64,000 nucleotides of DNA from Planctomycetota bacterium (GCA_020845475.1 JADLFN010000049.1:3062-67061); one strand, 5' to 3'; shown: positions 45,221 to 58,721, counted from the first letter of the stretch. The notes: generated from the sequence alone by a model not told the origin. Numbers and translations: made by a program.

Positions 45221-45308
45221 GGTTTTGTGGCACGGGTTGCCCTAACCCATGCCACGGCTGGAATGTCGCCGCACGTTGTACGCTCATGGCACCTCAAAGG
45301 AGAAAGCC

Positions 45309-45944
45309 ATGAGCAATGCGCAATACCGAGTGCAGGAACCCGCGGCGCAAGGCGTCCGCGAGCGGCTCACGCCGATTCAGGCGATGTTCCGCTGCGTGCG
45401 CGACGTGAAGCTGTTCGCGCTTTACATCGAGCTGGGCGGCGCCGTGCTGGATCGCGGCATTGAGTACTTCACGCGCGTGATCAGGTCAGGCGAGGAGTGC
45501 TTCGGCCGCGCGCTGGCCAGCGAACGCGAGGAGTGGGCCAAGCACGAGAAGGATCCCGAGTACCGCATGAAGCGTCTGCGCAGCATCGTGACGGTGGGCG
45601 AGGCGCTGCGCGCATCCAACGCGCTGACGCGCGCGATGGACGACCGCCGCGAGTTGATGCTGCGCGCCGTTGAAGCCGCGCAGAACGGCGCAATCGCCCA
45701 GGAAGTGTTCCTCAAGCGAGCGCAAAAGGCGTTCGAAGAGGTGCGCAAGGGCATGAGCGACATCCCGCTGGGTTGTGATGTGAACCGTGACGCGGCCCAT
45801 GATGCGGGCGTTCCGCCCGCACAGAACCGTGAATCGGCCGCGCAGGGTTCGCCCAAAGACGGGGACAGCCCGTCGGTAAACAGCGCCGGGGACACTCCCA
45901 AAAAGGCAGGTGCCGCCACGCCCGGCGCGACCAAGGCCGCCTAG
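45309..45944 (+). CDS. Hypothetical protein (211 aa)
   Basis: ATG at 45309 preceded by AAGGAG. MSNAQYRVQEPAAQGVRERLTPIQAMFRCVRDV... No family recognised. Confidence 0.5.
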   Translation: MSNAQYRVQEPAAQGVRERLTPIQAMFRCVRDVKLFALYIELGGAVLDRGIEYFTRVIRSGEECFGRALASEREEWAKHEKDPEYRMKRLRSIVTVGEALRASNALTRAMDDRRELMLRAVEAAQNGAIAQEVFLKRAQKAFEEVRKGMSDIPLGCDVNRDAAHDAGVPPAQNRESAAQGSPKDGDSPSVNSAGDTPKKAGAATPGATKAA

Positions 45945-46102: not shown

Positions 46103-47170
46103 ATGCGCCGCGTTATTCTCACCTGCCTCGCCCTGCTGTCGCTTTCGTTCATCTCGCAAGCCGAAGCGCCATCGCTTGAGCCCATACAAAGGAAGGAAGA
46201 CGTATTCAAGCTGGAAGAAGAAAACGGCTTGAAGGTGCTAAGGCTGAAGGGCAAGCAGGAACTTGTTGTCGAGTCATTGCTGCGAGCCTGGGTTGAGGCA
46301 AGCGGCAATCAGGTCATGTACCAGCCCTCGCAGGTGGCCTCCTTCAAGGTCACAATTGCCGCGCCGGAGGAGGGCAAAGCCTACGACGCGGCCGGAATCG
46401 AAGGGCTGCTGGCCGATGCGCTCTGGGAATTCAGGCTGTATCTGACGGAGCTGTCACCTCAGCGCTTTCACATTGTGCCGATCGTGGAGGCAGAGTATTA
46501 CGCGCCGCTTGTGGATGTGGCCGGGCTGAAGGCCGTGCCGGAGCATCGTGTGGTGAACCTGCGCTGGCGGACACCTTTTCCGCTGCTCTTTCTGCACAGG
46601 GCCGGCGCGACGAATCTCATGTGGCCGGAGGCGATGAACATGTCGCGCGTGCCGGGCATTGTGCTGTTGTGCGAGCGCGCCGCGCGCTTGCGCGAAATCA
46701 TTCCTTCGCTCGAGGAAATTGATCGTGCCGCAGCGCTGCGCGAGATCAGGCTTTACGAATCTGCATCTTCCATCGCGCCGGCCAGCGTCGCAAAGGCCCT
46801 TGACGAACTGGTTCCCAAGGACGTGTTTGTGCCCCAAAACGCCGTCTCGGCTATTCCCAACACGCGGCTACTGCTTGTCTGGGCGGTGCCCGAGATCCAG
46901 GCGCTGGTTCCCGGCGTGCTCAAGGCACTTGCGATCGAGCCCAAGGCCGCGCAGCCGCCGAAGGATCCGCCGAAGTGGGAAGTGCGCCGCTATGATTTGC
47001 CTGAGTCCGCCGACAGCGCGGACGTCATAGCCTCGCTGGAAAAGTTGTTTGACGCCGCGCGCACGCGCAGGCTGACGATTGTTTCAATCCCCGGAAAGAA
47101 AGCGCTGGCAGTTCGCGCCCTGCCCGAGATTCACGAACAAGTGGCTGAATTCATCGAACTCTTGAAATAG
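46103..47170 (+). CDS. Exported secretin-N-domain-only protein, paralog 1 (N0-like + Secretin_N-like modules, no pore domain)
   Basis: Signal peptide MRRVILTCLALLSLSFISQAEA. N0-like block LLRAWVEASGNQVMYQPSQVASFKVTI...RFHIVPIVEA. Terminal module RRYDLPESADSADVIASLEKLF...ALAVRALPEIHEQVAEFIELLK. Most degenerate middle module of the five. Confidence 0.7.
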   Translation: MRRVILTCLALLSLSFISQAEAPSLEPIQRKEDVFKLEEENGLKVLRLKGKQELVVESLLRAWVEASGNQVMYQPSQVASFKVTIAAPEEGKAYDAAGIEGLLADALWEFRLYLTELSPQRFHIVPIVEAEYYAPLVDVAGLKAVPEHRVVNLRWRTPFPLLFLHRAGATNLMWPEAMNMSRVPGIVLLCERAARLREIIPSLEEIDRAAALREIRLYESASSIAPASVAKALDELVPKDVFVPQNAVSAIPNTRLLLVWAVPEIQALVPGVLKALAIEPKAAQPPKDPPKWEVRRYDLPESADSADVIASLEKLFDAARTRRLTIVSIPGKKALAVRALPEIHEQVAEFIELLK

Positions 47171-47178
47171 GTGTGCCC

Positions 47179-48207
47179 ATGAAAACCCGCGTGCTGCTTT
47201 CAAGTGTGCTGCTGCTCGTGCTGGGCGTAGCGTCGTCCGCCCAGGAAAAAGCACCCGAAATGCCAGACGCCAAGGCGGAAGAAAGAAAGCCCTTGCACGT
47301 CACGAACAATACGAGCGATTTGTCCGTACTGGAGCTGATCAGATGGTGGTGCGAGTACGAAAAAGTGAGCGTCATCTATCAGCCAACGCAACTGATGAGT
47401 TTCAAGGTGACCCTGATGGTGCCAAAGGATGGCGAGGAGATTGCGCCCGAAAGACTGAGTCACCTTTTGGCGGATGCCCTTGATCAGTTCAGGCTTTGCA
47501 TCATCGAAATTTCCGAGAACCGCTATTCGATCGTGCAGGCCACGGAGGCCTGCACTCTCTCTCCTTTCCTCGATGTCGAAGCCGCGCGCAAAGCGCCAAG
47601 TTGGAAGTATGTTGTGGTGCGCATCCCGCTTCGCCACAGCGACGCGAATGTGGCGCGTGCCGCGCTGCAGAATTTGATGTCGCGCCAAGGCGGAACAGTG
47701 AATCCACTGCAAGCGCCTCAATTCCTGCTCATTGGAGATCGCGCGGATCGCTTGCAGCGGCTGATTGATGCCGTTGAAGCTTTCGAGGCCGAGGGCGCGC
47801 GCCGCACGGCCAAAACTTACATTCTTCCGCCCGGCATCAGCGCCAATAGCGCGGCTGCGGGCTTCTCGACAATCATCGGCAGTGAGCGCTACAACCAGCC
47901 CACGCCGCCCGCGGCAGCAGTAAATGAAACCACCGTTGTTGTGCGCGCCACGCCAGAGCAACTTGTGCTTTGCGATGAGCTGCACAAGCAGCTGGTGGCC
48001 AAGGCAGAGGAAATCACCGCCCAGAGCAAAGTGTCGGCGCGGCGCTACGACGTGGGCCGCACGCCCGATAAGTTTGTCGAGAGCCTGGAGAAGCTGTTCA
48101 AGAACCAGCTTTCCGTCGCTGCTGTGCCGGGTGCCGACGCCATCATCGTCAAGGCCAACGCCGCCACCCACGAAGAAGTCAAAGCCGCGCTCGAGTTGAT
48201 GAAATAG
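47179..48207 (+). CDS. Exported secretin-N-domain-only protein, paralog 2
   Basis: Signal peptide MKTRVLLSSVLLLVLGVASSAQE. N0-like LIRWWCEYEKVSVIYQPTQLMSFKVTL...RYSIVQATEA. Secretin_N-like YVVVRIPLRHSDANVARAALQNLMSRQGGTVNPLQAPQFLLIGDRADRLQRLIDAVEAFE. Ends ...IIVKANAATHEEVKAALELMK. Confidence 0.75.
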   Translation: MKTRVLLSSVLLLVLGVASSAQEKAPEMPDAKAEERKPLHVTNNTSDLSVLELIRWWCEYEKVSVIYQPTQLMSFKVTLMVPKDGEEIAPERLSHLLADALDQFRLCIIEISENRYSIVQATEACTLSPFLDVEAARKAPSWKYVVVRIPLRHSDANVARAALQNLMSRQGGTVNPLQAPQFLLIGDRADRLQRLIDAVEAFEAEGARRTAKTYILPPGISANSAAAGFSTIIGSERYNQPTPPAAAVNETTVVVRATPEQLVLCDELHKQLVAKAEEITAQSKVSARRYDVGRTPDKFVESLEKLFKNQLSVAAVPGADAIIVKANAATHEEVKAALELMK

Positions 48208-48231
48208 TGCGGCGCAGTTTCGTTTTCTTCC

Positions 48232-48256
48232 AAACGCGCGCCTTGGGCGCGCGTTT
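48232..48256 (+). terminator. Hairpin between paralogs 2 and 3 (possible terminator/attenuator)
   Basis: Stem aaacgcgcgcc, loop ttg, stem ggcgcgcgttt, followed by CATTTG, in the 137-nt gap. Confidence 0.45.
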
Positions 48257-48344
48257 CATTTGCCAGTGCAGCATCGCGAGTGGTTCGCGACCTACCCACA
48301 ACCCCGAAACCCGGAAGTCCGGCCCCCGCCGGAGGAGAACCGTC

Positions 48345-49208
48345 ATGTCCCGAATCCTAGCCGCGCTATTTGTTTGCTCGCTGGGTGTGTTGTTCGCATT
48401 TGCACAGGAAGCGCCGCGCGCTGCACCCGCGCCGGAGAAGCGCGTTCTCGAGGTAGGCGACGTGCCCTTCCTGGTCACGGAAATCGGCGGCAAGCCGGCT
48501 TGGAAGTTGCGCGGCCAGGTTGAAATCCCGCTGGCCGAGCTCGTGGGTGCGTGGGTTCGCGCCACGGGTACGCCGGTGCCCATCAACACGCGCGCTTTGG
48601 CCTACACGTGCAGTTACCAGGCGCCGCCCGATGGCGTGACGCTGACCGGCGACGCCATTACTGACTTCGTCTCCGACATGCTGGCGCAGGTGCGCATGGT
48701 GCTTGTCGGTTTCTCCTCGGGCCGCGCGCAGATTGTGCAGTCGGCCGAAGCCGCGACGCTGGCGCAGGTGGTCAATCGCACGGAGTTGGAAAAGGCCCCG
48801 GCATCTGAATGGGTCACCTGCTGCCTGATGTTCCGTTACGCCGAGCCAAACGCGGTGCGTGCGGCCTTGCAGAATCTCGTCTCGCGCCAAGGCGGCATCG
48901 TCAACCCCGTCTCGGGCGCCAACGGCCTGCTGATCACTGACCGCGCCGATCGCGTGCGCCAGATGGCCAAGCTCGCCGACACGCTCGACTCGACGGGCCA
49001 GGGCGAGCAAACGCTGGAGAAGTACGACTTGCCCGAGAGCATTGACGCGCTGGAGGCGGGCAAGGCGCTGATGTCACTCTTCCGTCCTGCAAGCAAGTCG
49101 CTGCCGCAGATGGAAGTATCGCTCGTGCCCGGCAAGGCGCGGCTGCTGATCCGCGCCAACGCCGCGCAGCACGCCGAGATCAAGCGCGCCATCGAGTTGA
49201 TGAAATAG
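48345..49208 (+). CDS. Exported secretin-N-domain-only protein, paralog 3
   Basis: GGAGGAG upstream of the ATG at 48345. Signal peptide MSRILAALFVCSLGVLFAFAQE. ...RAQIVQSAEA. WVTCCLMFRYAEPNAVRAALQNLVSRQGGIVNPVSGANGLLITDRADRVRQMAKLADTLD. Ends LEKYDLPESIDALEAGKALMSLF...LLIRANAAQHAEIKRAIELMK. Confidence 0.75.
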   Translation: MSRILAALFVCSLGVLFAFAQEAPRAAPAPEKRVLEVGDVPFLVTEIGGKPAWKLRGQVEIPLAELVGAWVRATGTPVPINTRALAYTCSYQAPPDGVTLTGDAITDFVSDMLAQVRMVLVGFSSGRAQIVQSAEAATLAQVVNRTELEKAPASEWVTCCLMFRYAEPNAVRAALQNLVSRQGGIVNPVSGANGLLITDRADRVRQMAKLADTLDSTGQGEQTLEKYDLPESIDALEAGKALMSLFRPASKSLPQMEVSLVPGKARLLIRANAAQHAEIKRAIELMK

Positions 49209-49213
49209 CATCT

Positions 49214-49245
49214 GAGCAGGGGCGACATATATGTCGCCCCTGCTC
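49214..49245. repeat. Palindromic element GAGCAGGGGCGACATAT/ATATGTCGCCCCTGCTC (copy 2 of the GGGGCGACA palindrome), between paralogs 3 and 4
   Basis: Perfect 32-bp palindrome 6 nt after the paralog 3 stop. Its core ggggcgaca..tgtcgcccc is shared with 39794..39815. Confidence 0.7.
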
Positions 49246-49310
49246 CGCGTCATTTGCGCCATCGCTGCGCATCCTCGCGCGTTTCAAATTCGATCGCCCT
49301 GGAGAAAACC

Positions 49311-50195
49311 ATGACCCGCCTGATTGCCGCAACCCTCGTCATCGTCTGCGCACTTGCTGTTGGCTTTGCACAGGAGAAACCGCCCGTGCTCGGGCGCGGC
49401 TCTTCAACGCTGCCCTTTGAAGTCACGGCCGTTGACGGCAAGCCCGCATGGATCGTCACGGGCCGCGGCACTGTCTATGTAGAAGACCTGCTCGGCGGCC
49501 TGGCCAACGCGACCTCGCTGCGCGTGTCGTTCACGGCGCGCGCCGCGGAATCGCGTCGCGCGGCGCTGGGATATCTCGCGCCGGATTCGGGCATGACGCT
49601 CAAGAGCGAGCAGATCCCCGCGTTCGTAAGTGAACTTCTCGCGGGGCAGGGTCTGACTATTGTCGGCTTCACGCAGGGCAACGCGCGCGTGGCGCGCATC
49701 GACGAGGCGGCCAGCCTGTCCACGCTCGTCACCGACGCCGAATTGACGAAGATCAACGACGCCGAGTGGGTCGCGCTGAACCTGAGTCTCGTCAACGCTT
49801 CGGTCGGCATGTCGAACCTGCTGCACATCTACAAGGGCGCCAACGTCACGGCCTACGACTATCCCGGCGGCGTGCTGATTTACGGCCCGGCTGAGCGCGT
49901 GCGCACCACCGCGCGCCTGTTGCGCGAACTCGACAAAACCGGCGTGGGTTCCATCACCGTGCGCACCTACGACCTGCCTGAGGGCGTGAAGGCCGACAAC
50001 GCGCGCCTGATTCTCTCCGGCCTGTTCCCCAGCGACACCACCGAAGTCAAACAGATGGACAGCGGCGTGAGCGTGGTTTCGCGCTCGACGCCGCGCGTGG
50101 TTGTCATGGCCGCACCCGTGGGCAACCGCCTGATCGTGCGCGCAAGCATCTCCGACCACACCATGGTCACTCAGGCGCTGGCGGCCATGAAGTAG
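49311..50195 (+). CDS. Exported secretin-N-domain-only protein, paralog 4
   Basis: GGAGAA upstream of the ATG at 49311. Signal peptide MTRLIAATLVIVCALAVGFAQE. ...NARVARIDEA. WVALNLSLVNASVGMSNLLHIYKGANVTAYDYPGGVLIYGPAERVRTTARLLRELD. Ends VRTYDLPEGVKADNARLILSGLF...LIVRASISDHTMVTQALAAMK. Confidence 0.7.
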   Translation: MTRLIAATLVIVCALAVGFAQEKPPVLGRGSSTLPFEVTAVDGKPAWIVTGRGTVYVEDLLGGLANATSLRVSFTARAAESRRAALGYLAPDSGMTLKSEQIPAFVSELLAGQGLTIVGFTQGNARVARIDEAASLSTLVTDAELTKINDAEWVALNLSLVNASVGMSNLLHIYKGANVTAYDYPGGVLIYGPAERVRTTARLLRELDKTGVGSITVRTYDLPEGVKADNARLILSGLFPSDTTEVKQMDSGVSVVSRSTPRVVVMAAPVGNRLIVRASISDHTMVTQALAAMK

Positions 50196-50253
50196 CGCAC
50201 GGTGCCATTGCGTTGTAGCCGCGCTACACTGGCGCCCTCACGGAGGTTTGGCC

Positions 50254-51366
50254 ATGGCGAAAATGACGCGGCTTGGACTGATGGTTGCGGCAGTGCTGGC
50301 GCTGGCGGTGGGAGTGGATTCGCAAGATCCGCCCAAGGCAAAGGCGGATTGGCGCAAGGTCGGGCTTTCGACGGAGTTCCTGGCCCACCGGCTGGTGGGG
50401 GAAACCACGGATCACTACGAGTTCACTGCGCTGGATCTGATCAGCGAGTGGGGCCGGCGCGGCGAAGTGACGGTGCGCTATGACGCGCGGCAGGTGGCCT
50501 CGGTGCCAAAGCTTTCGCTGCGGGGCGTCAAGGAGCCGAACAAACTTTCGGCCTTTGACCTGTGCCAGCGCGCGCTCGAGAACAACGGCCTGACGCTGTT
50601 TCCCGAGGCGGGCACGCCGCGCGCGTTCGTTGTGGACGCCGGCTACAACGCCGGTGAGCGCGCGCCGCTGGTTAAAGAGGAAGAGCTGGCCTCGATGGCA
50701 ACAAGCGAGTGGGCGGCGCTGCTTTACACGCTCAAGAGCGCGGGCGCTGCCCATGTGGTTTCCATGGCGCAGTCGGTGATGTCGCAGAGCGGCGGCCGCA
50801 TCCAGAGCACGCCCGGCCAGCCCACGCTGCTGGTAGTCGATCGCGCGGCCAACGTGATGCGCGTGCTGGAAGTGTTCCGCCAGGTGGACCTGCCGCGCGA
50901 AGACCCCAAGACGGTGCCCTATCAGCGTGCGACCAAGGCGCACCAGTTCCAGTTGGCCAAGACACTGCAGGCTTTCCTTGACCGTTACGCTGCGGAGATC
51001 AACGTGGCGGCGGGCAAGTTCTACGTTTCCTACGAGCACGAGACGCGCATGCTTGTGGGCATGGTACCGCAGGCGGTGTGCAGCTTCCTTGATGCCGCCA
51101 TCGACGCCGCAGACAAGAACGTTCAGGCCAAGCGCGACGAAGACGAGTTGCAGGGCCCGAACTTCGCGTGCTTTGAAGTGCCGATTCCACCGGAGCAAAA
51201 GGCCGCGGCCATTGAAGCCTCACTGCGCCAGTTGTTCGAGCCCGAGCAGGTGGCCGGTGACATGCGCACCATGATCAAGGGCGACCAGACCAAGAGCCTG
51301 GTGGTGCGCTGCCGCAAGTGGCTGGAAGCCGGCGTGCGCGACGCCCTTGAAACACTGATGAAATAG
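50254..51366 (+). CDS. Exported secretin-N-domain-only protein, paralog 5
   Basis: GGAGG 7 nt upstream of the ATG at 50254. Signal peptide MAKMTRLGLMVAAVLALAVGVDSQD. WAALLYTLKSAGAAHVVSMAQSVMSQSGGRIQSTPGQPTLLVVDRAANVMRVLEVFRQVD. Ends ...SLVVRCRKWLEAGVRDALETLMK. Confidence 0.7.
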   Translation: MAKMTRLGLMVAAVLALAVGVDSQDPPKAKADWRKVGLSTEFLAHRLVGETTDHYEFTALDLISEWGRRGEVTVRYDARQVASVPKLSLRGVKEPNKLSAFDLCQRALENNGLTLFPEAGTPRAFVVDAGYNAGERAPLVKEEELASMATSEWAALLYTLKSAGAAHVVSMAQSVMSQSGGRIQSTPGQPTLLVVDRAANVMRVLEVFRQVDLPREDPKTVPYQRATKAHQFQLAKTLQAFLDRYAAEINVAAGKFYVSYEHETRMLVGMVPQAVCSFLDAAIDAADKNVQAKRDEDELQGPNFACFEVPIPPEQKAAAIEASLRQLFEPEQVAGDMRTMIKGDQTKSLVVRCRKWLEAGVRDALETLMK

Positions 51367-51596: not shown

Positions 51597-53033
51597 ATGC
51601 GTGCAATGTCCAAAGTGGCTTTTGGCCTGATGCTGGGCCTGCTGGGCGGCTCGCGCCTTTGCGCTCAGGATGATTCGTTGAAGGACGCCTTGGCCCAGCT
51701 TGAGTCTCCCTTTGCGGAAGACCGTGCCAATGGCAAAGCCGAGCTGATTGCCCGCCAAGGCGACATTGCGCGAGAACTGCGCAACGCCATGGCCGACGCG
51801 CCCGAGTGTGTGCAGGCCGAATTGCTTGATGTCGTGCAGCGCCGTCGCGATGGCGCGCTGGTGCAGCAGGCCGCGGCGCTGCTGGGCGCGCGCGGTGACC
51901 GGCTTGTGCTTGCCGCTCGCGATTACCTTCTGGCGCTGAAGGGCGAAGACCTGAAGCTCGACGCTGAGGCGCTGGGTGCGGGCAAGGGCGCGTGGGAAAA
52001 CTTTCTGGTATTCCGCCGGCGGTACGCCATCACACTGGCCTTGATCGAGGCCCAGCTGAAGCCGGGAAAATTCATGGGCCAGTTCGACGCCTTGCGCGCC
52101 GAGTTTGGCGATCTGCTTGACAATGACCTGCTGGCGCTGGCACAGGCCAGGCCCGACTACAAGGAAGCTCTGCAAAAGGCCGCGGCGGACCGCGTCGCGC
52201 GCGGTCTCGAGGGCGGCGACGTAATCCGCAACGCGCGCTTTCGCCGCCTGCACAGCGGCGAGATGCTCGTGCTTGCGCTTGAGGTGATGGGCGCGGGCAA
52301 AGTGGACGCCGATGCGCAGTTGCAGCTTTCAAAGCAGGAGTCCTCCACCTTCGCAGCCGCAGTTTACATGGTGCAGGACTTGCGCGTGGCGGCCGTGCGC
52401 GCGCTGGCCCAAAGCGCCAACGGCGACGATCTTTCTGACCGCCTTGCCGCCTTCTATGCCACCGCGTGTCGGGACTCGACGCACGAATTGCTCAAGCGGC
52501 TGGTGGATCAGGACTCGCTGCGTGAAGAAGTGGAAGTGGTCTTGGCGCGCTTTGGCCGCACCGAGCTGCTCGAGGCGCGTCTGGCCGCGCTGCGCTCGCG
52601 TTATCAGCAGGCGGCCACCGGCCAGGTCGTCGCCAATGCGCGCTCCGCGGCGGAGGTTGAAACCCAGGCGCGCAACAGCGTTGCCTACCTTTATCTGCGC
52701 GCGGGCGACGCGGCTTCCGCCGAGCGGGAGTGGCAGGCGGCCATTGAGCAGGTGCAGGTGCGCATGAACGCAGCAACGGGCCGTGCGCGCAGCGCGCTGG
52801 CGGCCACCCACGGTGCGATCTACTATAATCTTGCCTGCGCCCAGAGCCTGCAACACAAGACTTCCAAGGCGCTGAGCAGCCTGCGAAAGGCGGTCGAGAA
52901 CGGCTATGCCGAGTTTGGCTGGTTGCTTGAAGATGGAGACCTTGAAAGCGTGCGTTCAACCAGAGCGTTTACGGACTGGTTCAAGCACGTCGCTCCGCCT
53001 TCGTTGTCTGATGCTCTTGCTGATGGCCGTTGA
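51597..53033 (+). CDS. Exported HEAT/TPR-like repeat protein (T1)
   Basis: Signal peptide MRAMSKVAFGLMLGLLGGSRLCAQD. N-terminal motif LESPFAEDRA. C-terminal TPR-end module IYYNLACAQSLQHKTSKALSSLRKAVENGYAEFGWLLEDGDLESVRSTRAFTDWF. Confidence 0.65.
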   Translation: MRAMSKVAFGLMLGLLGGSRLCAQDDSLKDALAQLESPFAEDRANGKAELIARQGDIARELRNAMADAPECVQAELLDVVQRRRDGALVQQAAALLGARGDRLVLAARDYLLALKGEDLKLDAEALGAGKGAWENFLVFRRRYAITLALIEAQLKPGKFMGQFDALRAEFGDLLDNDLLALAQARPDYKEALQKAAADRVARGLEGGDVIRNARFRRLHSGEMLVLALEVMGAGKVDADAQLQLSKQESSTFAAAVYMVQDLRVAAVRALAQSANGDDLSDRLAAFYATACRDSTHELLKRLVDQDSLREEVEVVLARFGRTELLEARLAALRSRYQQAATGQVVANARSAAEVETQARNSVAYLYLRAGDAASAEREWQAAIEQVQVRMNAATGRARSALAATHGAIYYNLACAQSLQHKTSKALSSLRKAVENGYAEFGWLLEDGDLESVRSTRAFTDWFKHVAPPSLSDALADGR

Positions 53034-54300
53034 AGCATGGCTCGCGCCCGCACTTGCCGCGCAGGGCGAACCCGTGTTTTCGCCGACCGCCGGCCCGGAC
53101 TCTCCCTTCGCTGAAGAGCGCGCCTTGGCCGGACTGGGCCAGAGCCGGGCCGAACGGCTGGAAGCCGCGCGTGCCATTTTGCGCGCGGGCGAACCGGCAA
53201 CCCAGCTGGCGTCGGCCATCGACACGATCGTGCGCGCGCGCGACAAGGCGGACATTGCGCTGATTGCGCCCTGCGCGGCCAGCCTTGATCCTGCCGTGGC
53301 CATGGGTGCGTCAGCCGCGCTGAAAGCCTACGGCCGGGATGCGCTGGCCGCTCTCGAAGCGCTGGCGCCGCAAGCGCTTGACGCGCCGACGCGCAAGAAG
53401 CTGCGCGAAATGCTGCTGCGTGATCACGTTCAAGCGTGTTGCCGCCGCGACCGCGCGATCAATCCGCTGCAACTCGAATACGAGGCGCGGCTTGATGAAC
53501 TGGACAGCATCAATGAAAACCTGGACGTGCTGCTGCTCTCGCTGCTCCGCGAGGCGCTGCCGGATTTGCGCAAGGACATCAACGGGCAGTACTTCAACCG
53601 GCGTTACTATTACCTGCCCACTGAAGATAGCGAACCCGCGTTCATTGAATATGGCGCGCTGGTGATCGCCGCTCTGGCGCGGCGCAAGCCCGAAGTGCTC
53701 AAGCGCGAGACCGAAGGCCTGATGGATCAGAATGCGCCGCCATCGTATTACAATTATTGGGGACAGATGCGCCAGAGTGCCACGCGCGAGCTGGCCTGTT
53801 TCCTGGCGCGCAACGGACAGAGCGCGGCGGCGGTCAAGATGGTCAGCGACATGGAATCCATGCTGCGCTATCAGCCCGATCCCGCGTATGCGGCGGGCGT
53901 GCACCTCGATGTTGCAGCGTCCATGATGTCAAGCGGCGTGAAGGACGAACGCAAACCGGGCCGGTTTTCGCTGGCGGCAGGGCCCTTCGAAGCGGCCGTT
54001 ATCATGGAGCACATCGAGACGGCGTTGCAGGCCGCCGGACAGTCAAGCCTGCCGGTGGCGTCGCAGGCCCGCTATCTGAAGGCGCGGCTGCTGATCGCGC
54101 AGGGAGACGATGGCGGCGCGCTGCGCGAGCTTGAGGAATCCATCGAAGCCTCGGATGAGCCCATGCTGCTGCTGGCCGTGGATGGCGCGTTTGCGAGCCT
54201 TGCAGAAGAACGCCGCTTCCAGACGCTGCTGCAATACACGGCGCTGATCGCGCGTCGCGTGGATGAAAACGCGCGGCCCTTCAAGGCCAAAGACCGCTGA
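53011..54300 (+). CDS. Exported HEAT/TPR-like repeat protein (T2), paralogous to T1 at the N-terminus
   Basis: Leader MLLLMAVEAWLAPALAAQGE, then PDSPFAEERA (compare T1 SPFAEDRA). Overlaps the T1 3' end. The start is ambiguous (53011 or 52933). Confidence 0.55.
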   Translation: MLLLMAVEAWLAPALAAQGEPVFSPTAGPDSPFAEERALAGLGQSRAERLEAARAILRAGEPATQLASAIDTIVRARDKADIALIAPCAASLDPAVAMGASAALKAYGRDALAALEALAPQALDAPTRKKLREMLLRDHVQACCRRDRAINPLQLEYEARLDELDSINENLDVLLLSLLREALPDLRKDINGQYFNRRYYYLPTEDSEPAFIEYGALVIAALARRKPEVLKRETEGLMDQNAPPSYYNYWGQMRQSATRELACFLARNGQSAAAVKMVSDMESMLRYQPDPAYAAGVHLDVAASMMSSGVKDERKPGRFSLAAGPFEAAVIMEHIETALQAAGQSSLPVASQARYLKARLLIAQGDDGGALRELEESIEASDEPMLLLAVDGAFASLAEERRFQTLLQYTALIARRVDENARPFKAKDR

Positions 54301-54316
54301 CAGCCCGGGGAAATTC

Positions 54317-57265
54317 GTGCCCACGATCGGCTTTGAGAACTACTGGTTCCTGCTGAGCGCTCTGCCGGTTGTGGGAGTCAGCGCCTGGTTGTGGCTGCGC
54401 ACGGGTACCCCCCTGTCGCGCCCGCGCAGGTTTGTCGGGGCGGTCGGCCTCGTGCTGGCGCTGCTGGGTCTGGTGCTGGGATCGGCCGGGCTTTTCTGGA
54501 ACGTGGGTTCGCAGCGCCAGACGGTGTGGGTGCTGGTCGATCGCTCGCTTTCTGCAGGCACGCGCGGAGAAGCGAAGCTGGCGGGCGTGCTGCGCGAGTT
54601 GTCGCAGAGCCTTCACGAGGACGACTTGATCGGGGTCATCAGTTTCTCCGACGTGCCGCAGCTTGAAGCCGAGCCGCAGAGTGCGCGGCGCTTCAATCCC
54701 GATTTTGCGCTCGCGCCAATGAGGCCCTCCGAGGAGACGTTTTTGGCGCCGGCGCTGGCCTTTGCGCGCCAGCGCACGCCCCTGGGCACTTCGCCCGTTG
54801 CGGTTGTGGTCAGCGACGGCCACGACACCAGCCTCAGCTACGGCGGCGAACTCCAGAAGGAGGCGCGCGCGGTGGGTGTGAAGGTTTACACGCTGGCCGT
54901 GGATTCCGACCCGCTGCCCGAAGTTGCGCTGGCGGACTTCGCCGCGCGCGTGGCGGGCAGCGAACGCACAAAGCTGGTGGCCGATCTCGTGGTTTACTCG
55001 ACGGTGCGCCAGAACATCAAGCTTACGCTGACCGTCGATCGCAAGCAGGTCGCGGTCAAGGAGCTCAGTGTGGATGAAGGCCGCACGCCCGTTCGCCTGC
55101 TCTATGAGCCGCCGGTGATCCAGGCGGTTTACGTGGTGGAAGCCAGCGTGGCTTCGAGCCGCGATACCTCGACGTCCAATAACGCGCTCAAGCTTGCGGT
55201 GCGCGGGCCGGGCGAGGCGAACATTCTGCTCGTGCACGGCGCAGAGGGGCCCGATGAAGCGCTCGTGCGCGCGCTCAAGGCCGCGAGCCTGAAAGTCACG
55301 ACGGGCCCGGCCGCGACACTGCCAAGCGATCCCGTTGAACTCGCGCGCTACCAGGTAATCGTGCTCTCGGACGTGCCGGCCACGGCCTTTTCGACCACTA
55401 CGCTGAGCATGCTTGAAATGTTCACTCGTCAGGGCGGCGGCTTGGCCATGATCGGCGGCCCGCGCAGTTTCGCGCCCGGCGGCTATTACGAGACTGCCGT
55501 GGAGAAGGCCCTTCCGGTGACGTGCAACGTGACTGAACGCGGGCGCAAGCAATCTCCGGCCATGGTGATCGCGCTGGACATATCGGGCTCCATGGGCGCG
55601 ACGGCCGGGCGCGGCCGCGAAACCAAGATTGACCTGGCCAACACCGGCTGCGTGCTGACGATCCAGTTGCTGGGGCCAGGCACGCACTTTGGCATGCTGG
55701 CCACGAACACCGAGAACAACTGGGTCGTCCCGCTTGGTCCGGTGACAAACTCCAACAAGAACGCGGCGATCCAGGCCGCCAAGGGCAACCGTGCGGGCGG
55801 CGGCGGCATCAACATGCTGACAAGTGTGACGGAGGCATTTGCCAAGCTGCGCAGCGCCAATACCTCGACCAAGCACCTCGTGCTGTTCGTGGACGGCGAC
55901 GACGCCGACGAGCAGGAGGGCGTGGTCGAAATGATCCGCCAGGGAATCGACCGCGACAAGATTACGGTCAGTGTCATCTGTCTGGGGCGGGGCAAGGACG
56001 TACCCTTCCTTCAGGCCTGCGCCCACGCGGGCCAGGGCCGCTTTGAGCTGGTCATGGATGCCAATAATCTGCCTGTCGTCTTCTCGCGCGAAGCAGCGCA
56101 GGTCGGGGGCAACTTCATCCGGGAGGAAGAATTCAGGCCCAAGGCGGGTGTGCCGGGCTTCTTTACGGAAGGTTTCGACTTTCAATCAAAGGAATCACCT
56201 CCGCTTCTTGGCTACGTTGCCACAAGCGCGCGTGAAAACGCCGACACCTGGCTGTGGGCCGATTCCGAAGAAGAAAAGCCCGAGCGCCCGCTGCTGGCCA
56301 CGTGGCATTACGGCCTTGGCAAGTCGCTGGCTTTTGCCAGCGATGCGCGCGACCGCTGGGCCGACAAGTGGTTGCCTTGGGGCGGCTACAACGCGCTCTG
56401 GCAGCGCTGGATTCGCTGGCTGTTGCCGCGCCCGGAGCAACTCAGCGGCGTGGAGACTGAGTGGACCATGTCGCGTGACGGCCCCGAAGTCACGCTCTCT
56501 TTCTTTGACCAGGAAGGCGCGCCGCGCCAGTTGATCGATCCGGTGGCCGAAATCTCGCTGCCCGACGGCGTGCAGGTGGATACGCCGGTGGTGGCTGTGG
56601 GCTCGGGCGCATATCGCGTGCGTTTTCCCAAGACCGGCAGCGGTGTTTATGCAACCACTGTGCGCGAGCGCCCGCCCAACGTGGAACAGCGCCTTGTGGC
56701 GCGCGAACATCAAGTGTTTGTGCCGCTCGATGAACTGCGCCGGCGCCCTGCCAATGTCGCGGCGCTTTCCGCCCTCGCACGCATCACCGGCGGCAAACTC
56801 GTGGACGAAGCCGCCTATCTGGGCAGCGTGGAGCCCGAGACAACCTACGACCAGGTGAAGCCGTCAACGGCGTTCTTCTGGCTGGGCCTTCTGGGCATGT
56901 TCCTGGCACTGGGCGCTCGGCGTTTTCCGACGGTGTGGCTGCCGCGCGAAGTGACCTCCGCTGCCGCGCGCGAACAGGCGCAACAGCGCGAGCTGGCTTC
57001 GCGTGCGGCCTTTGAGCGTGTGCGCGAGCGGCTGGACACCCGCGTGCGCGCGGCTAAGCCGCAGGCTCCCTCGGCGGTGCTTCCGCCTTCGATGCCGCCG
57101 CCTGTTGCCCCGGTAGTGCCCGTCACTCCGGTCGCCACGGTCGCCCCTGCCCCGCGCAGCCCGACGGAAAGGCCCGCGCCAGCACCCGATGGCGGCGAGG
57201 GACTGCTTGGCGCCATGCGCCGCGTGAAGAAAGAGCTCGACGCTCGCAAGGGGTCTGGGCCATGA
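54317..57265 (+). CDS. BatA-like N-terminal double-TM protein with two VWA domains and a glutamine-amidotransferase-like middle domain
   Basis: GFENYWFLLSALPVVGVSAWLWL plus a second TM. VWA 1 VWVLVDRSLSAG...VVVSDGHDTS. GATase1-like ILLVHGAEGPDE...VIVLSDVPA...GGGLAMIGG. VWA 2 MIDAS motif VIALDISGSMG...LVLFVDGDDADE. C-terminal TM and a Pro-rich tail. GTG at 54317 is the likely start (ORF track: 54263). Confidence 0.75.
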   Translation: MPTIGFENYWFLLSALPVVGVSAWLWLRTGTPLSRPRRFVGAVGLVLALLGLVLGSAGLFWNVGSQRQTVWVLVDRSLSAGTRGEAKLAGVLRELSQSLHEDDLIGVISFSDVPQLEAEPQSARRFNPDFALAPMRPSEETFLAPALAFARQRTPLGTSPVAVVVSDGHDTSLSYGGELQKEARAVGVKVYTLAVDSDPLPEVALADFAARVAGSERTKLVADLVVYSTVRQNIKLTLTVDRKQVAVKELSVDEGRTPVRLLYEPPVIQAVYVVEASVASSRDTSTSNNALKLAVRGPGEANILLVHGAEGPDEALVRALKAASLKVTTGPAATLPSDPVELARYQVIVLSDVPATAFSTTTLSMLEMFTRQGGGLAMIGGPRSFAPGGYYETAVEKALPVTCNVTERGRKQSPAMVIALDISGSMGATAGRGRETKIDLANTGCVLTIQLLGPGTHFGMLATNTENNWVVPLGPVTNSNKNAAIQAAKGNRAGGGGINMLTSVTEAFAKLRSANTSTKHLVLFVDGDDADEQEGVVEMIRQGIDRDKITVSVICLGRGKDVPFLQACAHAGQGRFELVMDANNLPVVFSREAAQVGGNFIREEEFRPKAGVPGFFTEGFDFQSKESPPLLGYVATSARENADTWLWADSEEEKPERPLLATWHYGLGKSLAFASDARDRWADKWLPWGGYNALWQRWIRWLLPRPEQLSGVETEWTMSRDGPEVTLSFFDQEGAPRQLIDPVAEISLPDGVQVDTPVVAVGSGAYRVRFPKTGSGVYATTVRERPPNVEQRLVAREHQVFVPLDELRRRPANVAALSALARITGGKLVDEAAYLGSVEPETTYDQVKPSTAFFWLGLLGMFLALGARRFPTVWLPREVTSAAAREQAQQRELASRAAFERVRERLDTRVRAAKPQAPSAVLPPSMPPPVAPVVPVTPVATVAPAPRSPTERPAPAPDGGEGLLGAMRRVKKELDARKGSGP

Positions 57266-57834
57266 CGCGACTGCTTGTGATTCTTGCGCTTGGATCTCTG
57301 CTCGCGTGTGCGTGCACGGGGGGCAGTTCAACCACGCTGCGGCCAGCGGCGGATCGGCCCATTATCGGCCCTGACGGCGTTTTCTGGGATGCGATTGAAG
57401 CCGCGCGCGGAGGGCACACGCAGCGCATGGGCCGCGTGCTCAGCACGGGCTTTGTGCACCGCGCCATCTTGCCCAACACCCCACGCGCAGAATTCAGCGA
57501 TGAAGAGAGCTTCATTTTCGCCAACGAGCGCATGGAGCGCGAGCTTGCGCCCTTCAATTCAATCCGTGAACGGCTCTGCAAGCGCTATACCGGCTGGCTC
57601 GACGAGACCACGCGCGGCCGTGTGATCGAGGCAGGGCGCCCGAGTTACGAAATCAAGTATAAGGACGGTTACGGCAGCGCGCGCGGCCCCAATACGGCGA
57701 CGATCAAGGTCAACCTGCACCAGGCGCAAGCCAAGACGCCGAAGGTGCTGGCAGTGAGTTTCATCCAGGACGGCGACACTTGGCGCATTGACGGCTTCTC
57801 GCCCGACCCGCTGTTTGGCGAGTTCATTCGCTAG
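57262..57834 (+). CDS. Lipoprotein (190 aa)
   Basis: MTRLLVILALGSLLACACTGG lipobox. ATGA overlap with the upstream VWA gene. No family recognised with confidence. Confidence 0.6.
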   Translation: MTRLLVILALGSLLACACTGGSSTTLRPAADRPIIGPDGVFWDAIEAARGGHTQRMGRVLSTGFVHRAILPNTPRAEFSDEESFIFANERMERELAPFNSIRERLCKRYTGWLDETTRGRVIEAGRPSYEIKYKDGYGSARGPNTATIKVNLHQAQAKTPKVLAVSFIQDGDTWRIDGFSPDPLFGEFIR

Positions 57835-58721
57835 CCGCGTTCTTCAATGGCGTTGAGCACGCGCAAATTGACGAAGCCCGCGACGGGCAGCAGCACCAGC
57901 GCGCAGATTGCCACGGGCGTGGAAAGCTCAAAGGCTACGGTGGCGAATAGCACGACGACATCGAGAAGCGTCAGCGCAAGCAGCAGCGCCCCGTTGGCCC
58001 AGTTGCTGTCGCGCGAGAAAACGAACCTGGCGGCGGGCCAGCTTGCAAAGGGTATGATGGCCACGGCGGCCAGCACGATCAACATGCGCCAGATCACGCC
58101 CCAGGTCGAAGCCCAGAATCCGGGCCCGCTGTTTTCTTCCTCTTTAACCTTCGCGCTGCCTGAGAGCCCGGTGATGACGAGCGGCTGCGCGATGCTTGCC
58201 TTGCGATCTTTGTCCTGCGAGCGCACGATGCGCATCAGGTCGAGTTCGCACTTGCCGGAGTCCGCGCCGGACTTTGTCGTTGCGCGCGCCTGTACCACCT
58301 CATCGGCTTCAGCAGCTTTTTCGAACACTTTCTGCGGGTCGTCGGGAGTTTGCTTGCCGAGCACGGACTTGAAGATGCCGGTGGCTCGCTCCTCAAGGTC
58401 GGGATCCGGCGGCTTGACGGCTTTGAGGCCGGCGACTTCATTGAGGCGATCGAGCATGCGCGCACGGATCTCACTGTTGCTGGTGTCGCCCAGCACGGGC
58501 ATGACGACCAGGCGCTGCTCACCGTTCTCGCGCACAACCTGCGAGTAATGCTCGGCCAGTTGCTCCAGCGCGTCATCGAGCGCTTCGCGCTGCAACGACT
58601 TGAGGTCGCTGGGCGGTTTGAAGAAGTTCGCGTAAACCAGCCAGCCGACTATGGCCAGCGCCGCCAGGCCGATGCCGACGGAGAACACCTTGAAGCCGGG
58701 GATGTTGTCTAGCAGTGCCAC
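57831..58721 (-). CDS. Membrane protein (1 N-terminal + ~3 C-terminal TM helices), hypothetical
   Basis: 296 aa. VFSVGIGLAALAIVGWLVYANFF, with C-terminus FWASTWGVIWRMLIVLAAVAIIPF...LLLALTLLDVVVLFATVAF...ICALVLLPVAGFV. Last gene of the sigma/coiled-coil operon. Confidence 0.55.
   Translation of the reverse strand: MALLDNIPGFKVFSVGIGLAALAIVGWLVYANFFKPPSDLKSLQREALDDALEQLAEHYSQVVRENGEQRLVVMPVLGDTSNSEIRARMLDRLNEVAGLKAVKPPDPDLEERATGIFKSVLGKQTPDDPQKVFEKAAEADEVVQARATTKSGADSGKCELDLMRIVRSQDKDRKASIAQPLVITGLSGSAKVKEEENSGPGFWASTWGVIWRMLIVLAAVAIIPFASWPAARFVFSRDSNWANGALLLALTLLDVVVLFATVAFELSTPVAICALVLLPVAGFVNLRVLNAIEERG

What the first reader, a model, noticed from the sequence alone, without database searches (positions are those of the whole stretch)
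46103..51366. Five tandem, divergent, exported paralogs made only of secretin N-terminal modules, with no secretin pore
All five consecutive plus-strand genes (287-370 aa) share the same layout:
- A cleavable-looking signal peptide ending AQE, AQA or SQD.
- An N0/STN-like block ending in an IVP/IVQ...EA strand (RFHIVPIVEA, RYSIVQATEA, RAQIVQSAEA, NARVARIDEA).
- A block that reads like the Secretin_N ring-building module of GspD/PilQ, for example VRAALQNLMSRQGGTVNP....LLIGDRADRLQRLIDAVEAFE in paralog 2 and near-identical logic in 3, 4 and 5.
- A final Secretin_N-like module starting around YDLPE and running to the very C-terminus.

None has room for the ~250-aa beta-barrel secretin domain or S-domain, since full secretins are roughly twice this size. 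No gspE/F/G-M, pilB/C/M-P or tad genes occur in the 64 kb; the only pilin-like gene is an orphan 27 kb away.

Ring-building modules without a pore, amplified five-fold and kept divergent, suggest a hetero-oligomeric or stacked periplasmic ring/scaffold. I do not recognise this as a described system.
Basis: partly seen in the sequence, partly recalled or inferred. Interest (0 to 1): 0.88.

Follow-up and report, generated by a model that had tools for sequence, protein, structure and literature searches.

The report
Pore-less secretin N-domain paralog array
Five neighbouring genes of an uncultured planctomycete encode exported proteins that are only the periplasmic ring-building front half of a secretin channel, without its pore; they belong to a conserved family I found no paper on and probably build a periplasmic scaffold with separately encoded partners.

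Summary
Window 46103-51366 carries five + strand paralogs (355, 342, 287, 294 and 367 aa; 21-34% identical). Each has a signal peptide, a GspD-type N0 domain and two (p3, p4) or three (p1, p2, p5) Secretin_N modules, and each stops at the last helix.

A family profile matches solved GspD/PulD N0-N1-N2 colinearly (E 3e-24). AlphaFold models (pLDDT 84 and 89) hit GspD, PulD and XcpQ N-domains first. No secretin pore is found in any frame of the 64 kb or of the 10 related loci scanned. No T2SS, T4P or Tad genes lie in the window.

The genes are real: dN/dS is 0.04-0.18. They form stable orthogroups in arrays of 3-5 in Planctomycetota MAGs only; about 80 short family representatives were collected from one search.

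New here: p4-p5 travel with two exported TPR proteins, a 1000-aa membrane VWA protein and a lipoprotein, and this link survives three rearrangements. Natural split secretins (an N-part gene plus a pore gene) also occur in three environmental T2SS operons, so N-domain proteins can work in trans.

Ring formation, the partners and any pore elsewhere in the genome remain untested. Verdict: new variant of a known kind.

The parts
46103..47170 (+). p1: exported pore-less GspD-N homologue, 355 aa; signal peptide, N0 and three Secretin_N-type modules
   Evidence: ORF. Pfam Secretin_N E 1.3e-7, two stretches. Family HMM matches the full length plus an extra C-terminal module. Orthologs 71-79% identical in L001, L003, L007 and L008. 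dN/dS 0.15 against L003.
47179..48207 (+). p2: exported pore-less GspD-N homologue, 342 aa; N0-N1-N2-N3
   Evidence: Pfam Secretin_N E 9.5e-9. GspD TIGR02517 matched only at profile positions 33-258 of 600. AF2 pLDDT 84, pTM 0.71: N0 17-105, N1 122-185, N2 188-257 (hairpin at low confidence), N3 about 266-319. Foldseek top hit is ETEC GspD N0-N2, 3ezj, E 3e-9. dN/dS 0.18.
48345..49208 (+). p3: exported pore-less GspD-N homologue, 287 aa; N0-N1-N2
   Evidence: Pfam Secretin_N E 1.2e-8. A single pass through the family HMM. Ortholog 87-89% identical in L003, 48-51% in L001, L007 and L008, and p3-like copies in L009 and L010. dN/dS 0.10.
49311..50195 (+). p4: exported pore-less GspD-N homologue, 294 aa; N0-N1-N2
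   Evidence: Pfam Secretin_N 26.4 bits, just under the gathering score. AF2 pLDDT 88.9: N0 16-115, N1 132-187, N2 194-272. Foldseek top hit is PulD 6hcg_A, TM 0.61, rmsd 4.2 A over 254 columns. Orthologs in L003 (95%), L013 (55%), L009 (40%) and L010 (34-35%), always beside the d1-d3 block. dN/dS 0.04.
50263..51366 (+). p5: most divergent exported pore-less GspD-N homologue, 367 aa; N0 and three modules
   Evidence: Pfam Secretin_N E 2.7e-7. GspD TIGR02517 E 2.9e-11, profile positions 32-188 only. Orthologs in L003 (87%), L013 (42%) and L009 (31-32%). dN/dS 0.17.
51606..53033 (+). d1: exported helical-repeat protein with a TPR end-of-group domain; conserved neighbour of p4/p5
   Evidence: NCBIfam TPR_END_plus E 4.5e-13. 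Signal-peptide-like MSKVAFGLMLGLLGGSRLCA read. Homologs follow the array in L003 (87%), L009 (37%), L010 (41%) and L013 (46-55%).
53011..54300 (+). d2: second exported protein with a TPR end-of-group domain (the same domain as d1); its start overlaps the d1 stop
   Evidence: NCBIfam TPR_END_plus E 3.7e-8. Signal-peptide-like MLLLMAVEAWLAPALAAQG. Homologs in L003 (78%), L009 (40%), L010 (39%) and L013 (52%).
54263..57265 (+). d3: 1000-aa membrane protein with two VWA domains and a GATase1_like domain (BatA-like layout); overlaps the d2 stop
   Evidence: Pfam VWA_2, VWA, VWA_3 and GATase1_like. Hydrophobic segments at both ends read. Homologs in L003 (94%), L013 (74%) and L009 (52%), and a gene call with the same Pfam set in L010.
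57262..57834 (+). e190: small putative lipoprotein; overlaps the d3 stop
   Evidence: Translation starts MTRLLVILALGSLLACACTGG, with a lipobox-like LLAC. No Pfam family. Homologs directly after d3 in L013 (57%) and L009 (40%).
57831..61757 (-). e296 (57831-58721, membrane protein) and e977 (58824-61757, long coiled coil): convergent neighbours kept together with the block in L013. Whether they belong to it is uncertain.
   Evidence: tblastn gives 71% and 56% identity in L013 in the same relative position. SMC- and tropomyosin-like coiled-coil matches only.
45249..45944 (+). Upstream 231-aa protein of no known family, conserved directly before p1 in the close clade. Whether it belongs to the system is uncertain.
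   Evidence: No Pfam or NCBIfam hit. 51-55% identical homolog upstream of p1 in L001, L003, L007 and L008.

Best explanation
The five genes encode Sec-exported, soluble periplasmic proteins. Each is a free-standing copy of the N0-N1-N2(-N3) periplasmic module of a GspD-type secretin, ends at the final helix of its last module, and has no outer-membrane pore.

I think they most likely oligomerise through their ring-building (Secretin_N) modules into rings or ring stacks. These would form the periplasmic tube or scaffold of an envelope assembly whose membrane-bound parts are encoded separately.

For p4 and p5, and probably p3, the partners I favour are the co-inherited downstream genes. These are two exported TPR proteins (d1, d2), an inner-membrane protein with two VWA domains (d3) whose bulk probably faces the periplasm, and a small lipoprotein (e190). 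p1 and p2 are a younger, faster-evolving addition found only in the close clade.

Shown:
- homology and fold
- export signals
- absence of a pore
- purifying selection
- stable orthogroups
- gene linkage

Inferred:
- oligomerisation into rings
- stacking or mixing of paralogs
- physical contact with d1-d3 and e190
- the periplasmic orientation of d3 (from charge distribution only)
- what, if anything, passes through the assembly
For: Domain identity:
- Pfam Secretin_N matches all five.
- A family profile of 83 short members matches solved GspD/PulD/XcpQ chains colinearly. Profile positions 53-275 align to GspD residues 12-232, that is N0-N1-N2, at E 3e-24 to 1e-16.
- AF2 models reach pLDDT 84 and 89.
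- Foldseek top hits are GspD N0-N2, PulD, XcpQ N012 and InvG. p4 superposes on a PulD protomer from the assembled channel with TM 0.61 and rmsd 4.2 A.

Export: all five carry a signal-peptide-like N-terminus, and 82 of 86 Met-initiated family sequences pass a crude hydrophobic-stretch test.

No pore.

Functional genes:
- dN/dS against L003 is 0.04-0.18.
- The orthogroups p1-p5 are clear and keep a fixed order.
- Arrays of 3-5 recur in several MAGs, including a distant four-gene array in L005.
- The family has a hallmark C-terminus, H-x2-[VI]-x2-A-[LI]-x2-[ML]-K-COOH. Of 89 sequences, 53 end in K.

Linkage to the d-block: p4(-p5)-d1-d2-d3(-e190) stays together in four arrangements.
- L003, where the layout matches the window.
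- L009, where p1 and p2 are absent.
- L010, where the block is inverted and separated from the other three copies.
- L013, where the upstream context is entirely different.

Operon signals: the d1/d2, d2/d3 and d3/e190 reading frames overlap.

Precedents that N-domain polypeptides work in trans:
- Natural split GspD genes in the T2SS operons of L012, L015 and L016. In L012 the pore part has its own signal peptide and ribosome-binding site.
- Mitochondrial GspDN1-3 (PMC8134430).
Against: - No multimer prediction or experiment supports ring formation.
- Isolated GspD N-domains are not known to ring up without the pore domain. This is my own knowledge and was not checked here.
- The three-copy genomes (L001, L007, L008) lack the d-block next to the array. 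So p1-p3 at least do not need it in cis.
- The linkage comes from few, related genomes within one phylum-level clade, so some of it may be inherited gene order.
- d1-d3 and e190 have no known function, and no outer-membrane component is encoded in the block.
- The periplasmic orientation of d3 rests on charge distribution only.
Confidence: 0.45

Rival explanations
1. Split or modular secretin. The five proteins are trans-acting periplasmic subunits of an ordinary T2SS- or T4P-type secretin whose pore-bearing subunit and ATPase/platform genes lie elsewhere in the genome. They would add extra N-domain rings under the pore to bridge the wide planctomycetal periplasm. This would be the non-covalent counterpart of the giant multi-N-domain secretins of sister lineages. 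The neighbouring TPR and VWA genes would be incidental.
For: - Natural N-part plus pore-part gene pairs occur in three T2SS operons.
- Mitochondrial GspDN interacts with pore-only GspD (PMC8134430).
- After family members, the best hits of the paralog profile are Planctomycetota giant secretins. They have N0, up to 35 Secretin_N stretches and a C-terminal pore, and run 1540-5532 aa.
- Thermus PilQ uses six stacked periplasmic rings (PMC5745081).
- Planctomycetes have an enlarged periplasm and do encode secretins (PMC11131199; PMC3422733).
- The window has a pilin-like gene with the N_methyl motif, which implies a type IV filament system in this genome.
Against: - None of the array loci scanned (window, L001-L005, L007-L010) or L013 has a pore gene or T2SS/T4P genes within about 10 kb. 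All three split secretins found, by contrast, sit inside T2SS operons with the pore gene adjacent.
- The split N-parts lack the family's C-terminal ...LMK end.
- A pore-domain search found no hit traceable to an array-bearing MAG. This is inconclusive, because only 120 of 572 hits were listed.
Confidence: 0.3
2. Non-ring adaptor or signalling proteins. The N0/STN-type and Secretin_N domains act as monomeric protein-protein interaction modules. They could be periplasmic adaptors or chaperones, or partners in cell-surface signalling as in FecA/FecR-type STN domains. They would not be structural rings.
For: - In another Planctomycetota contig (L014), an ECF sigma factor is fused to a Secretin_N domain and is followed by a 523-aa N-domain-only protein.
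- STN/N0 domains are used in TonB-dependent transducer signalling. This is from my own knowledge of the FecA/FecR and PupR literature and was not checked here.
Against: - No ECF sigma or anti-sigma factor and no TonB-dependent receptor lies beside any of the arrays examined.
- The proteins keep the complete colinear N0-N1-N2 arrangement of secretins rather than a lone STN domain.
- Both models are extended like an assembled secretin protomer.
Confidence: 0.12
3. Decaying remnants. The genes are truncated leftovers of secretin genes that lost their pores and are drifting.
For: The proteins stop where a secretin would continue into N3 and the pore.
Against: - dN/dS is 0.04-0.18 for all five.
- Each has its own signal peptide and a precise, conserved C-terminal motif.
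- Orthogroups persist across MAGs whose SucD proteins are only about 80% identical to the window's.
- About 80 short representatives were collected for the family.
Confidence: 0.02
4. An ordinary secretin locus whose pore domain is hidden by a frameshift or a missed ORF.
For: None found.
Against: A pore HMM built from 36 pore-bearing hits of the profile search, run with --max on every six-frame ORF of at least 30 aa in the window and in ten related loci, gave only one noise hit at E 5.6. The same architecture recurs in independent assemblies.
Confidence: 0.01

Closest known systems
GspD/PulD/XcpQ type II secretion secretins (periplasmic N0-N1-N2-N3 module)
   Same: Colinear sequence homology to N0-N1-N2 (E 3e-24). 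The predicted fold and extended domain arrangement are the same. Both have a Sec signal peptide.
   Different: There is no C-terminal pore (PF00263) and no S-domain; the protein ends at the last N-module helix. It is not in a T2SS operon. It occurs as 3-5 divergent tandem paralogs. It has its own conserved C-terminal ...[ML]K motif.
Naturally split GspD in environmental T2SS operons
   Same: A separate gene encodes only N0 plus Secretin_N modules. This shows that such polypeptides can function without a covalently attached pore.
   Different: There the N-part is a single gene, immediately followed by a pore-only gene. In L012 the pore part has its own signal peptide. The pair sits at the end of a gspE/F-to-M-like operon. 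In the window there are five paralogs, with no adjacent pore gene and no gsp genes.
Mitochondrial T2SS GspDN1-3 (Horvathova et al. 2021, PMC8134430)
   Same: Secretin_N domains are encoded apart from a pore-only GspD. Interaction between the two polypeptides is reported there.
   Different: Those are eukaryotic, each is a single N-domain or half of one, they have no N0, and they co-occur with GspD, E, F and G. The window proteins carry N0 plus 2-3 modules, and their partner is unknown.
Giant multi-N-domain secretins of Planctomycetota, and Thermus PilQ with six periplasmic rings (PMC5745081)
   Same: Both multiply Secretin_N-type ring modules. The giants are the closest non-family hits to the paralog profile.
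   Different: There the modules are amplified within one pore-bearing polypeptide. Here they are spread over separate pore-less genes.
Ring-building-motif proteins without a pore: T3SS PrgK/EscJ and PrgH, sporulation SpoIIIAG/AH
   Same: They share the general idea of pore-less periplasmic ring builders based on an alpha-beta-beta-alpha-beta type module. This comes from established structural literature and was not retested here.
   Different: Those proteins are membrane-anchored by a lipid or a transmembrane helix, have no N0, and show no detectable sequence relationship. None appeared among the top 50 Foldseek hits, which were all secretin N-domains or noise.
Bat-type VWA/TPR envelope proteins (BatA-E 'aerotolerance' operon)
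   Same: d3 has the BatA-like layout of N-terminal membrane helices followed by VWA domains. d1 and d2 are TPR-type proteins.
   Different: No MoxR ATPase or DUF58 gene lies in the block. d3 is much larger, with two VWA domains plus GATase1_like. Secretin-N proteins are not part of described Bat operons. This comparison rests on my own knowledge.

Membership tests
Secretin superfamily (GspD/PilQ/InvG/pIV) | C-terminal secretin pore domain (PF00263) that forms the outer-membrane beta-barrel and gate | tested here: not met
   No PF00263 hit in any of the five even at E<=10. The local pore HMM found nothing in any frame of the window or of L001-L010.
Secretin superfamily (GspD/PilQ/InvG/pIV) | N0 domain at the mature N-terminus | tested here: met
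   The family profile aligns from GspD residue 12 through N0. AF2 N0 folds have pLDDT above 90. Foldseek hits N0-containing GspD, PulD and XcpQ fragments. Pfam type_II_gspD_N0 matches only weakly, in 4 of 83 members.
Secretin superfamily (GspD/PilQ/InvG/pIV) | One or more Secretin_N (N1-N3) ring-building modules | tested here: met
   PF03958 is above the gathering score in p1, p2, p3 and p5. In p4 it scores 26.4 vs 28.2 bits, and the p4 model confirms the fold. 66 of 83 family members match PF03958.
Secretin superfamily (GspD/PilQ/InvG/pIV) | Assembly into a 12-15-mer ring | not testable with these tools
   No multimer prediction was available. There is only the indirect fit of p4 to a PulD protomer of the 15-mer.
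Type II secretion / type IV pilus gene cluster | Linkage to ATPase (GspE/PilB), platform (GspF/PilC) and (pseudo)pilin genes | tested here: not met
   None in the 64-kb window. None within about 10 kb of the arrays in the related array-bearing loci, by the precomputed gene calls and Pfam hits. There is one orphan pilin-like gene 27 kb away. The rest of the genome was not searched.
Split secretin (N-part gene plus pore-part gene), as in L012, L015 and L016 | A pore-only secretin gene immediately downstream of the N-part gene | tested here: not met
   The genes after the array are TPR, TPR, VWA and lipoprotein. There is no pore gene.
Split secretin (N-part gene plus pore-part gene), as in L012, L015 and L016 | An N-part polypeptide consisting only of N0 plus Secretin_N modules | tested here: met
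   for the window proteins; for the L012 N-part.
New family proposed here: short pore-less GspD-N proteins of Planctomycetota | Signal peptide, N0 and 2-3 Secretin_N modules; 250-370 aa; ends at the last helix, usually ...[ML]K-COOH; tandem paralog arrays | tested here: met
   All five match the full-length family HMM at E 1e-66 to 1e-95. All five end ...[LM]K (LLK in p1, AMK in p4, LMK in p2, p3 and p5). Arrays recur in L001, L003, L005, L007, L008, L009, L010 and L013.
Bat-type VWA envelope system (for the linked d3 gene) | Operon with a MoxR AAA+ ATPase and a DUF58 protein | tested here: not met
   No MoxR or DUF58 in the window. A DUF58 gene lies a few kb from the array in L001 only.

The most novel reading that the evidence does not exclude
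The array and its linked TPR, VWA and lipoprotein genes encode a previously unrecognised planctomycetal envelope machine. Free-standing secretin-type N-domain rings, made of several paralogs, would form a long periplasm-spanning tube or tether. It would be independent of T2SS/T4P ATPases and possibly related to the unexplained outer-membrane complexes or the periplasm architecture of this phylum.
Probability: 0.15. Interest if true: 0.85.

Novelty: new variant of a known kind. Interest (0 to 1): 0.62.

Why it matters
Secretins are the universal outer-membrane gates of type II and III secretion, type IV pili and filamentous phage export. Their N-domains are thought of as an integral periplasmic skirt of the pore subunit.

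A conserved, selected family in which that skirt exists alone, in 3-5 paralogs, would show that the ring-building part is a separable building block. So would the split and giant secretins found alongside it. Bacteria would then be resizing and recombining this block, plausibly to cope with the unusually wide and plastic planctomycetal periplasm.

The finding also gives concrete candidates (p1-p5, d1-d3, e190) for envelope-spanning structures in a phylum whose cell envelope is still poorly understood. In addition, the proteins are a natural test case for how N-domain rings assemble without a pore.

Tried and rejected
- Single-sequence search of p2 against PDB sequences found only noise. A family profile was needed.
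The narrower A4 scan of 185,579 species genomes returned only two loci, both unnamed Planctomycetota MAGs. So taxonomy below phylum and a broad genomic survey were not obtained.
- Word-indexed homolog searches reached only close orthologs. The exhaustive representative search was what revealed the family.
- I tried to learn whether array-bearing MAGs have a pore-bearing secretin. I searched a pore profile and looked for matching locus tags or contig lengths (4122760, 987207, 850675, 433248, 134253 and others).
  - No match appeared among the 120 listed of 572 hits, so the result is inconclusive.
  - One contig-length coincidence (3344 bp) proved unrelated.
  - All listed hits were shorter than 400 aa, and even the query's own giant source proteins were missing. 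The list is therefore biased.
- The promoter and terminator scan was uninformative. It found 0 promoter-like sites, fewer terminator-like sites than in shuffles, and only a weak hairpin after p2.
- No tRNA or Rfam element lies in the window.
- Literature searches for planctomycete secretins, Secretin_N-only proteins and stand-alone ring-building proteins found no description of this family.
- I considered and rejected a hidden pore or frameshift and pseudogene remnants. I also considered a prophage pIV-type secretin. There are no phage genes; the context is housekeeping (dcw cluster, ffh, rpsP, sucD).

Full report
**1. The observation**

The region 46103-51366 holds five consecutive + strand ORFs. 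Taking the first start that is followed by a signal-peptide-like segment, the genes are:
- p1: 46103-47170, 355 aa
- p2: 47179-48207, 342 aa
- p3: 48345-49208, 287 aa
- p4: 49311-50195, 294 aa
- p5: 50263-51366, 367 aa

All-against-all BLASTP shows that they are paralogs. They are 21-34% identical, with E values down to 1e-41.

Pfam finds Secretin_N (PF03958) in all five. Four are above the gathering score, and p4 is just under it. Pfam finds no Secretin pore domain. NCBIfam's GspD model matches p2, p3 and p5, only over its N-terminal 32-258 of 600 positions.

The surrounding 64 kb is ordinary chromosome: the dcw cluster, ffh, rpsP, sucD, norB, rodA and a sigma factor. It contains no GspE/F/G, PilB/C/M-Q or Tad genes.

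**2. What the proteins are**

A profile of the five paralogs was searched against 1.84 billion representative proteins. It gave 1316 hits at E<=1e-3 and 230 at E<=1e-10.

An alignment of the five window proteins and 78 short hits (250-434 aa) was then searched against PDB sequences. It matches Vibrio, E. coli and Klebsiella GspD/PulD and the ETEC and Pseudomonas N0-N1-N2 crystal constructs at E 3e-24 to 1e-16. The match is colinear: profile positions 53-275 align to GspD residues 12-232.

AlphaFold2 with this alignment gave two models.
- p2: pLDDT 84, pTM 0.71, with N0, N1, a less confident N2 and an N3.
- p4: pLDDT 88.9, pTM 0.74, with N0, N1 and N2.

Foldseek against the PDB returns GspD N0-N2 (3ezj), PulD (6hcg), XcpQ N012 and InvG as top hits for both models. 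p4 superposes on a PulD protomer taken from the assembled channel with TM 0.61 and rmsd 4.2 A over 254 columns.

The family HMM passes once through p3 and p4. In p1, p2 and p5 it finds one extra C-terminal module. So the layouts are N0 plus two modules (p3, p4) or N0 plus three modules (p1, p2, p5).

All five end directly after the last helix. In the 89-sequence family alignment, 53 sequences end in Lys within a motif H-x2-[VI]-x2-A-[LI]-x2-[ML]-K.

**3. No hidden pore, and real genes**

I built a pore HMM from 36 pore-bearing hits of the profile search. I ran it without filters on every six-frame ORF of at least 30 aa in the window and in ten related loci. It found only one noise hit, at E 5.6.

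Against the orthologs in L003, dN/dS is 0.15, 0.18, 0.10, 0.04 and 0.17 for p1-p5. For comparison, sucD gives 0.09. These are functional genes, not remnants.

**4. Distribution and gene order**

Every family member that carries a source name comes from a Planctomycetota MAG, where it is annotated 'hypothetical protein' or, by JGI, 'GspD/PulD (secretin)'. p1 is 100% identical to a protein of MAG locus IT461_10020.

Related loci show tandem arrays again:
- L003: five copies, with a TetR gene and a methyltransferase gene inserted between p2 and p3.
- L001, L002, L007 and L008: three copies (p1, p2 and a p3-like gene).
- L009: three copies (p3-, p4- and p5-like).
- L010: three p3-like copies, plus a separate p4-like gene.
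- L013: p4 and p5.
- L005: four 253-272-aa copies in a distant organism.

Best-hit analysis gives clean orthogroups p1-p5 in a fixed order. The duplications therefore predate the split of these lineages, whose SucD proteins are about 80% identical to the window's.

**5.

Downstream of p5 lie four genes:
- d1, an exported protein with a TPR end-of-group domain.
- d2, a second exported protein with the same domain; its start overlaps the d1 stop.
- d3, 1000 aa, with membrane segments, two VWA domains and a GATase1_like domain; it overlaps d2.
- e190, a small protein with a lipobox-like LLAC; it overlaps d3.

The block p4(-p5)-d1-d2-d3(-e190) is kept in four arrangements:
- L003, where it is syntenic with the window.
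- L009, where p1 and p2 are absent.
- L010, where p4-d1-d2-d3 is inverted and detached from the other three copies.
- L013, where the upstream neighbourhood is entirely different, yet the convergent genes e296 and e977 are also retained.

Surviving three independent rearrangements is the best evidence available here for a functional connection. The three-copy genomes lack the block next to the array, so p1-p3 are not tied to it in cis.

p1 and p2 also differ from p3-p5 in divergence from L003. Their dS is 1.1-1.3, against 0.44-0.72 for p3-p5. This suggests two sub-modules with different histories.

**6. Related architectures found on the way**

(a) Giant secretins. The next-best hits to the paralog profile are giant secretins from Planctomycetota (Phycisphaerae and others). 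The pore-bearing ones run 1540-5532 aa, with N0, up to 35 Secretin_N stretches and the pore at the very C-terminus.

(b) Split secretins. A pore-domain search turned up natural split secretins. In three environmental T2SS operons (L012, L015, L016) the last two genes are an N-part of 429-540 aa and a pore part of 346-362 aa.
- In L012 and L015 the N-part carries N0 and Secretin_N. No Pfam hits are on record for the L016 N-part.
- In L012 the pore part has its own signal peptide and ribosome-binding site, and the same protein is seen on 14 contigs.

Together with the mitochondrial GspDN1-3 proteins (PMC8134430), these show that secretin N-domains can be supplied as separate polypeptides. The giant secretins and the six-ring Thermus PilQ (PMC5745081) show that the number of N-rings is evolutionarily adjustable. 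Planctomycetes are known for an enlarged periplasm (PMC11131199; PMC3422733).

**7. Most likely mechanism**

Shown: these are exported, soluble, pore-less copies of the secretin N0-N1-N2(-N3) module. They are under purifying selection and organised as stable paralog sets. p4 and p5 are genetically coupled to the TPR, VWA and lipoprotein genes.

Inferred: they oligomerise through their ring-building modules into rings or stacks. These form the periplasmic part of an envelope assembly whose membrane parts are encoded separately. I put 0.45 on the version in which the partners are d1-d3 and e190.

The rivals are:
- Split or modular secretin (0.30): the partner is a pore-bearing secretin of a T2SS/T4P encoded elsewhere.
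- Non-ring adaptor or signalling role (0.12): prompted by an ECF-sigma-Secretin_N fusion next to an N-only protein in L014.
- Remnants or a hidden pore (0.03 or less together).

The first two readings are not mutually exclusive.

**8. Membership**

The proteins share N0 and Secretin_N with secretins but fail the defining pore domain and the operon context. They should therefore not be filed as secretins.

They resemble the N-parts of split secretins, but they lack the adjacent pore gene and the gsp context.

They are best treated as a distinct family of short pore-less GspD-N proteins restricted, so far, to Planctomycetota. No Pfam or NCBIfam model covers them as a family, and no paper was found.

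**9. Limits**

- Ring formation and hetero-oligomerisation were not testable.
- The rest of the genome could not be searched for a pore-bearing secretin or for T2SS/T4P genes. The one attempt was inconclusive.
- Taxonomy below phylum is unknown.
- The linkage evidence comes from a handful of MAGs.

**10. Verdict**

This is a real, conserved and apparently undescribed variant of the secretin N-domain theme. I rate interest at 0.62 and novelty as 'new variant of a known kind'. There is about a 15% chance that it marks a new planctomycetal envelope machine.

Noticed in passing
Proteins P0023, P0046, P0055 and others (not in the window): Planctomycetota (Phycisphaerae and others) encode giant secretins of 1540-5532 aa. 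They have N0, up to 35 Secretin_N stretches and the pore domain at the very C-terminus. Many further 1.7-4-kaa hits lack the pore; they may be truncated gene calls, which I did not check. I found no paper describing them.
   Followed up: partly
L012 8678-11062; L015 6596-9041; L016 6219-9089: Natural split GspD at the end of T2SS operons: an N-part gene (429-540 aa) followed by a pore gene (346-362 aa). In L012 and L015 the N-part carries N0 and Secretin_N. In L012 the pore part has its own signal peptide and RBS, and the same protein is seen on 14 contigs.
   Followed up: partly
L014 8292-11572: A 570-aa protein fuses ECF sigma regions 2 and 4 to a Secretin_N domain. It is immediately followed by a 523-aa pore-less Secretin_N protein (P0132). 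This suggests a signalling use of these domains in some Planctomycetota.
   Followed up: partly
window 46103-48207 versus 48345-51366; L003 11121-12915: Against L003, p1 and p2 are far more diverged (67-74% aa identity, dS 1.1-1.3) than p3-p5 (87-95%, dS 0.44-0.72). L003 also has a TetR gene and a methyltransferase gene inserted exactly between p2 and p3. The array looks like two sub-modules with different histories.
   Followed up: partly
window 41160-41912 (+), beside rpsP at 42114-42404: A 250-aa ORF carries only the SRP54 M (signal-peptide-binding) domain, while a full ffh sits at 19471-20946. Proteins of 195-203 aa with the same domain occupy the same position upstream of rpsP in L001, L003, L009 and L010. 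This looks like a conserved stand-alone SRP M-domain paralog.
   Followed up: no
window 17449-19050 (-): The orphan pilin-like gene (N_methyl motif, 210 aa) lies next to a gene for a putative lipoprotein with a lamin-tail domain (LTD). No other type IV filament genes are nearby.
   Followed up: no
window 57831-61757 (-): A 296-aa membrane protein and a 977-aa coiled-coil protein (SMC- and tropomyosin-like matches only) converge on the d3/e190 block. They keep this position in L013 at 71% and 56% identity despite a different upstream context.
   Followed up: partly
C-termini of the five proteins (window 47120-47167, 48157-48204, 49158-49205, 50145-50192, 51316-51363): The family-wide C-terminal motif is H-x2-[VI]-x2-A-[LI]-x2-[ML]-K-COOH, and 53 of 89 sequences end in Lys. 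Its role is unknown. Docking of a free C-terminus into the linked TPR proteins is an untested idea.
   Followed up: partly
window 36588-39794 (+): A 1068-aa protein matches a class III adenylate cyclase at its N-terminus and TPR-family regulators at its C-terminus. Its counterparts in L001, L003 and L009 carry Guanylate_cyc, AAA_22 and TPR hits and lie upstream of the same syntenic stretch.
   Followed up: no
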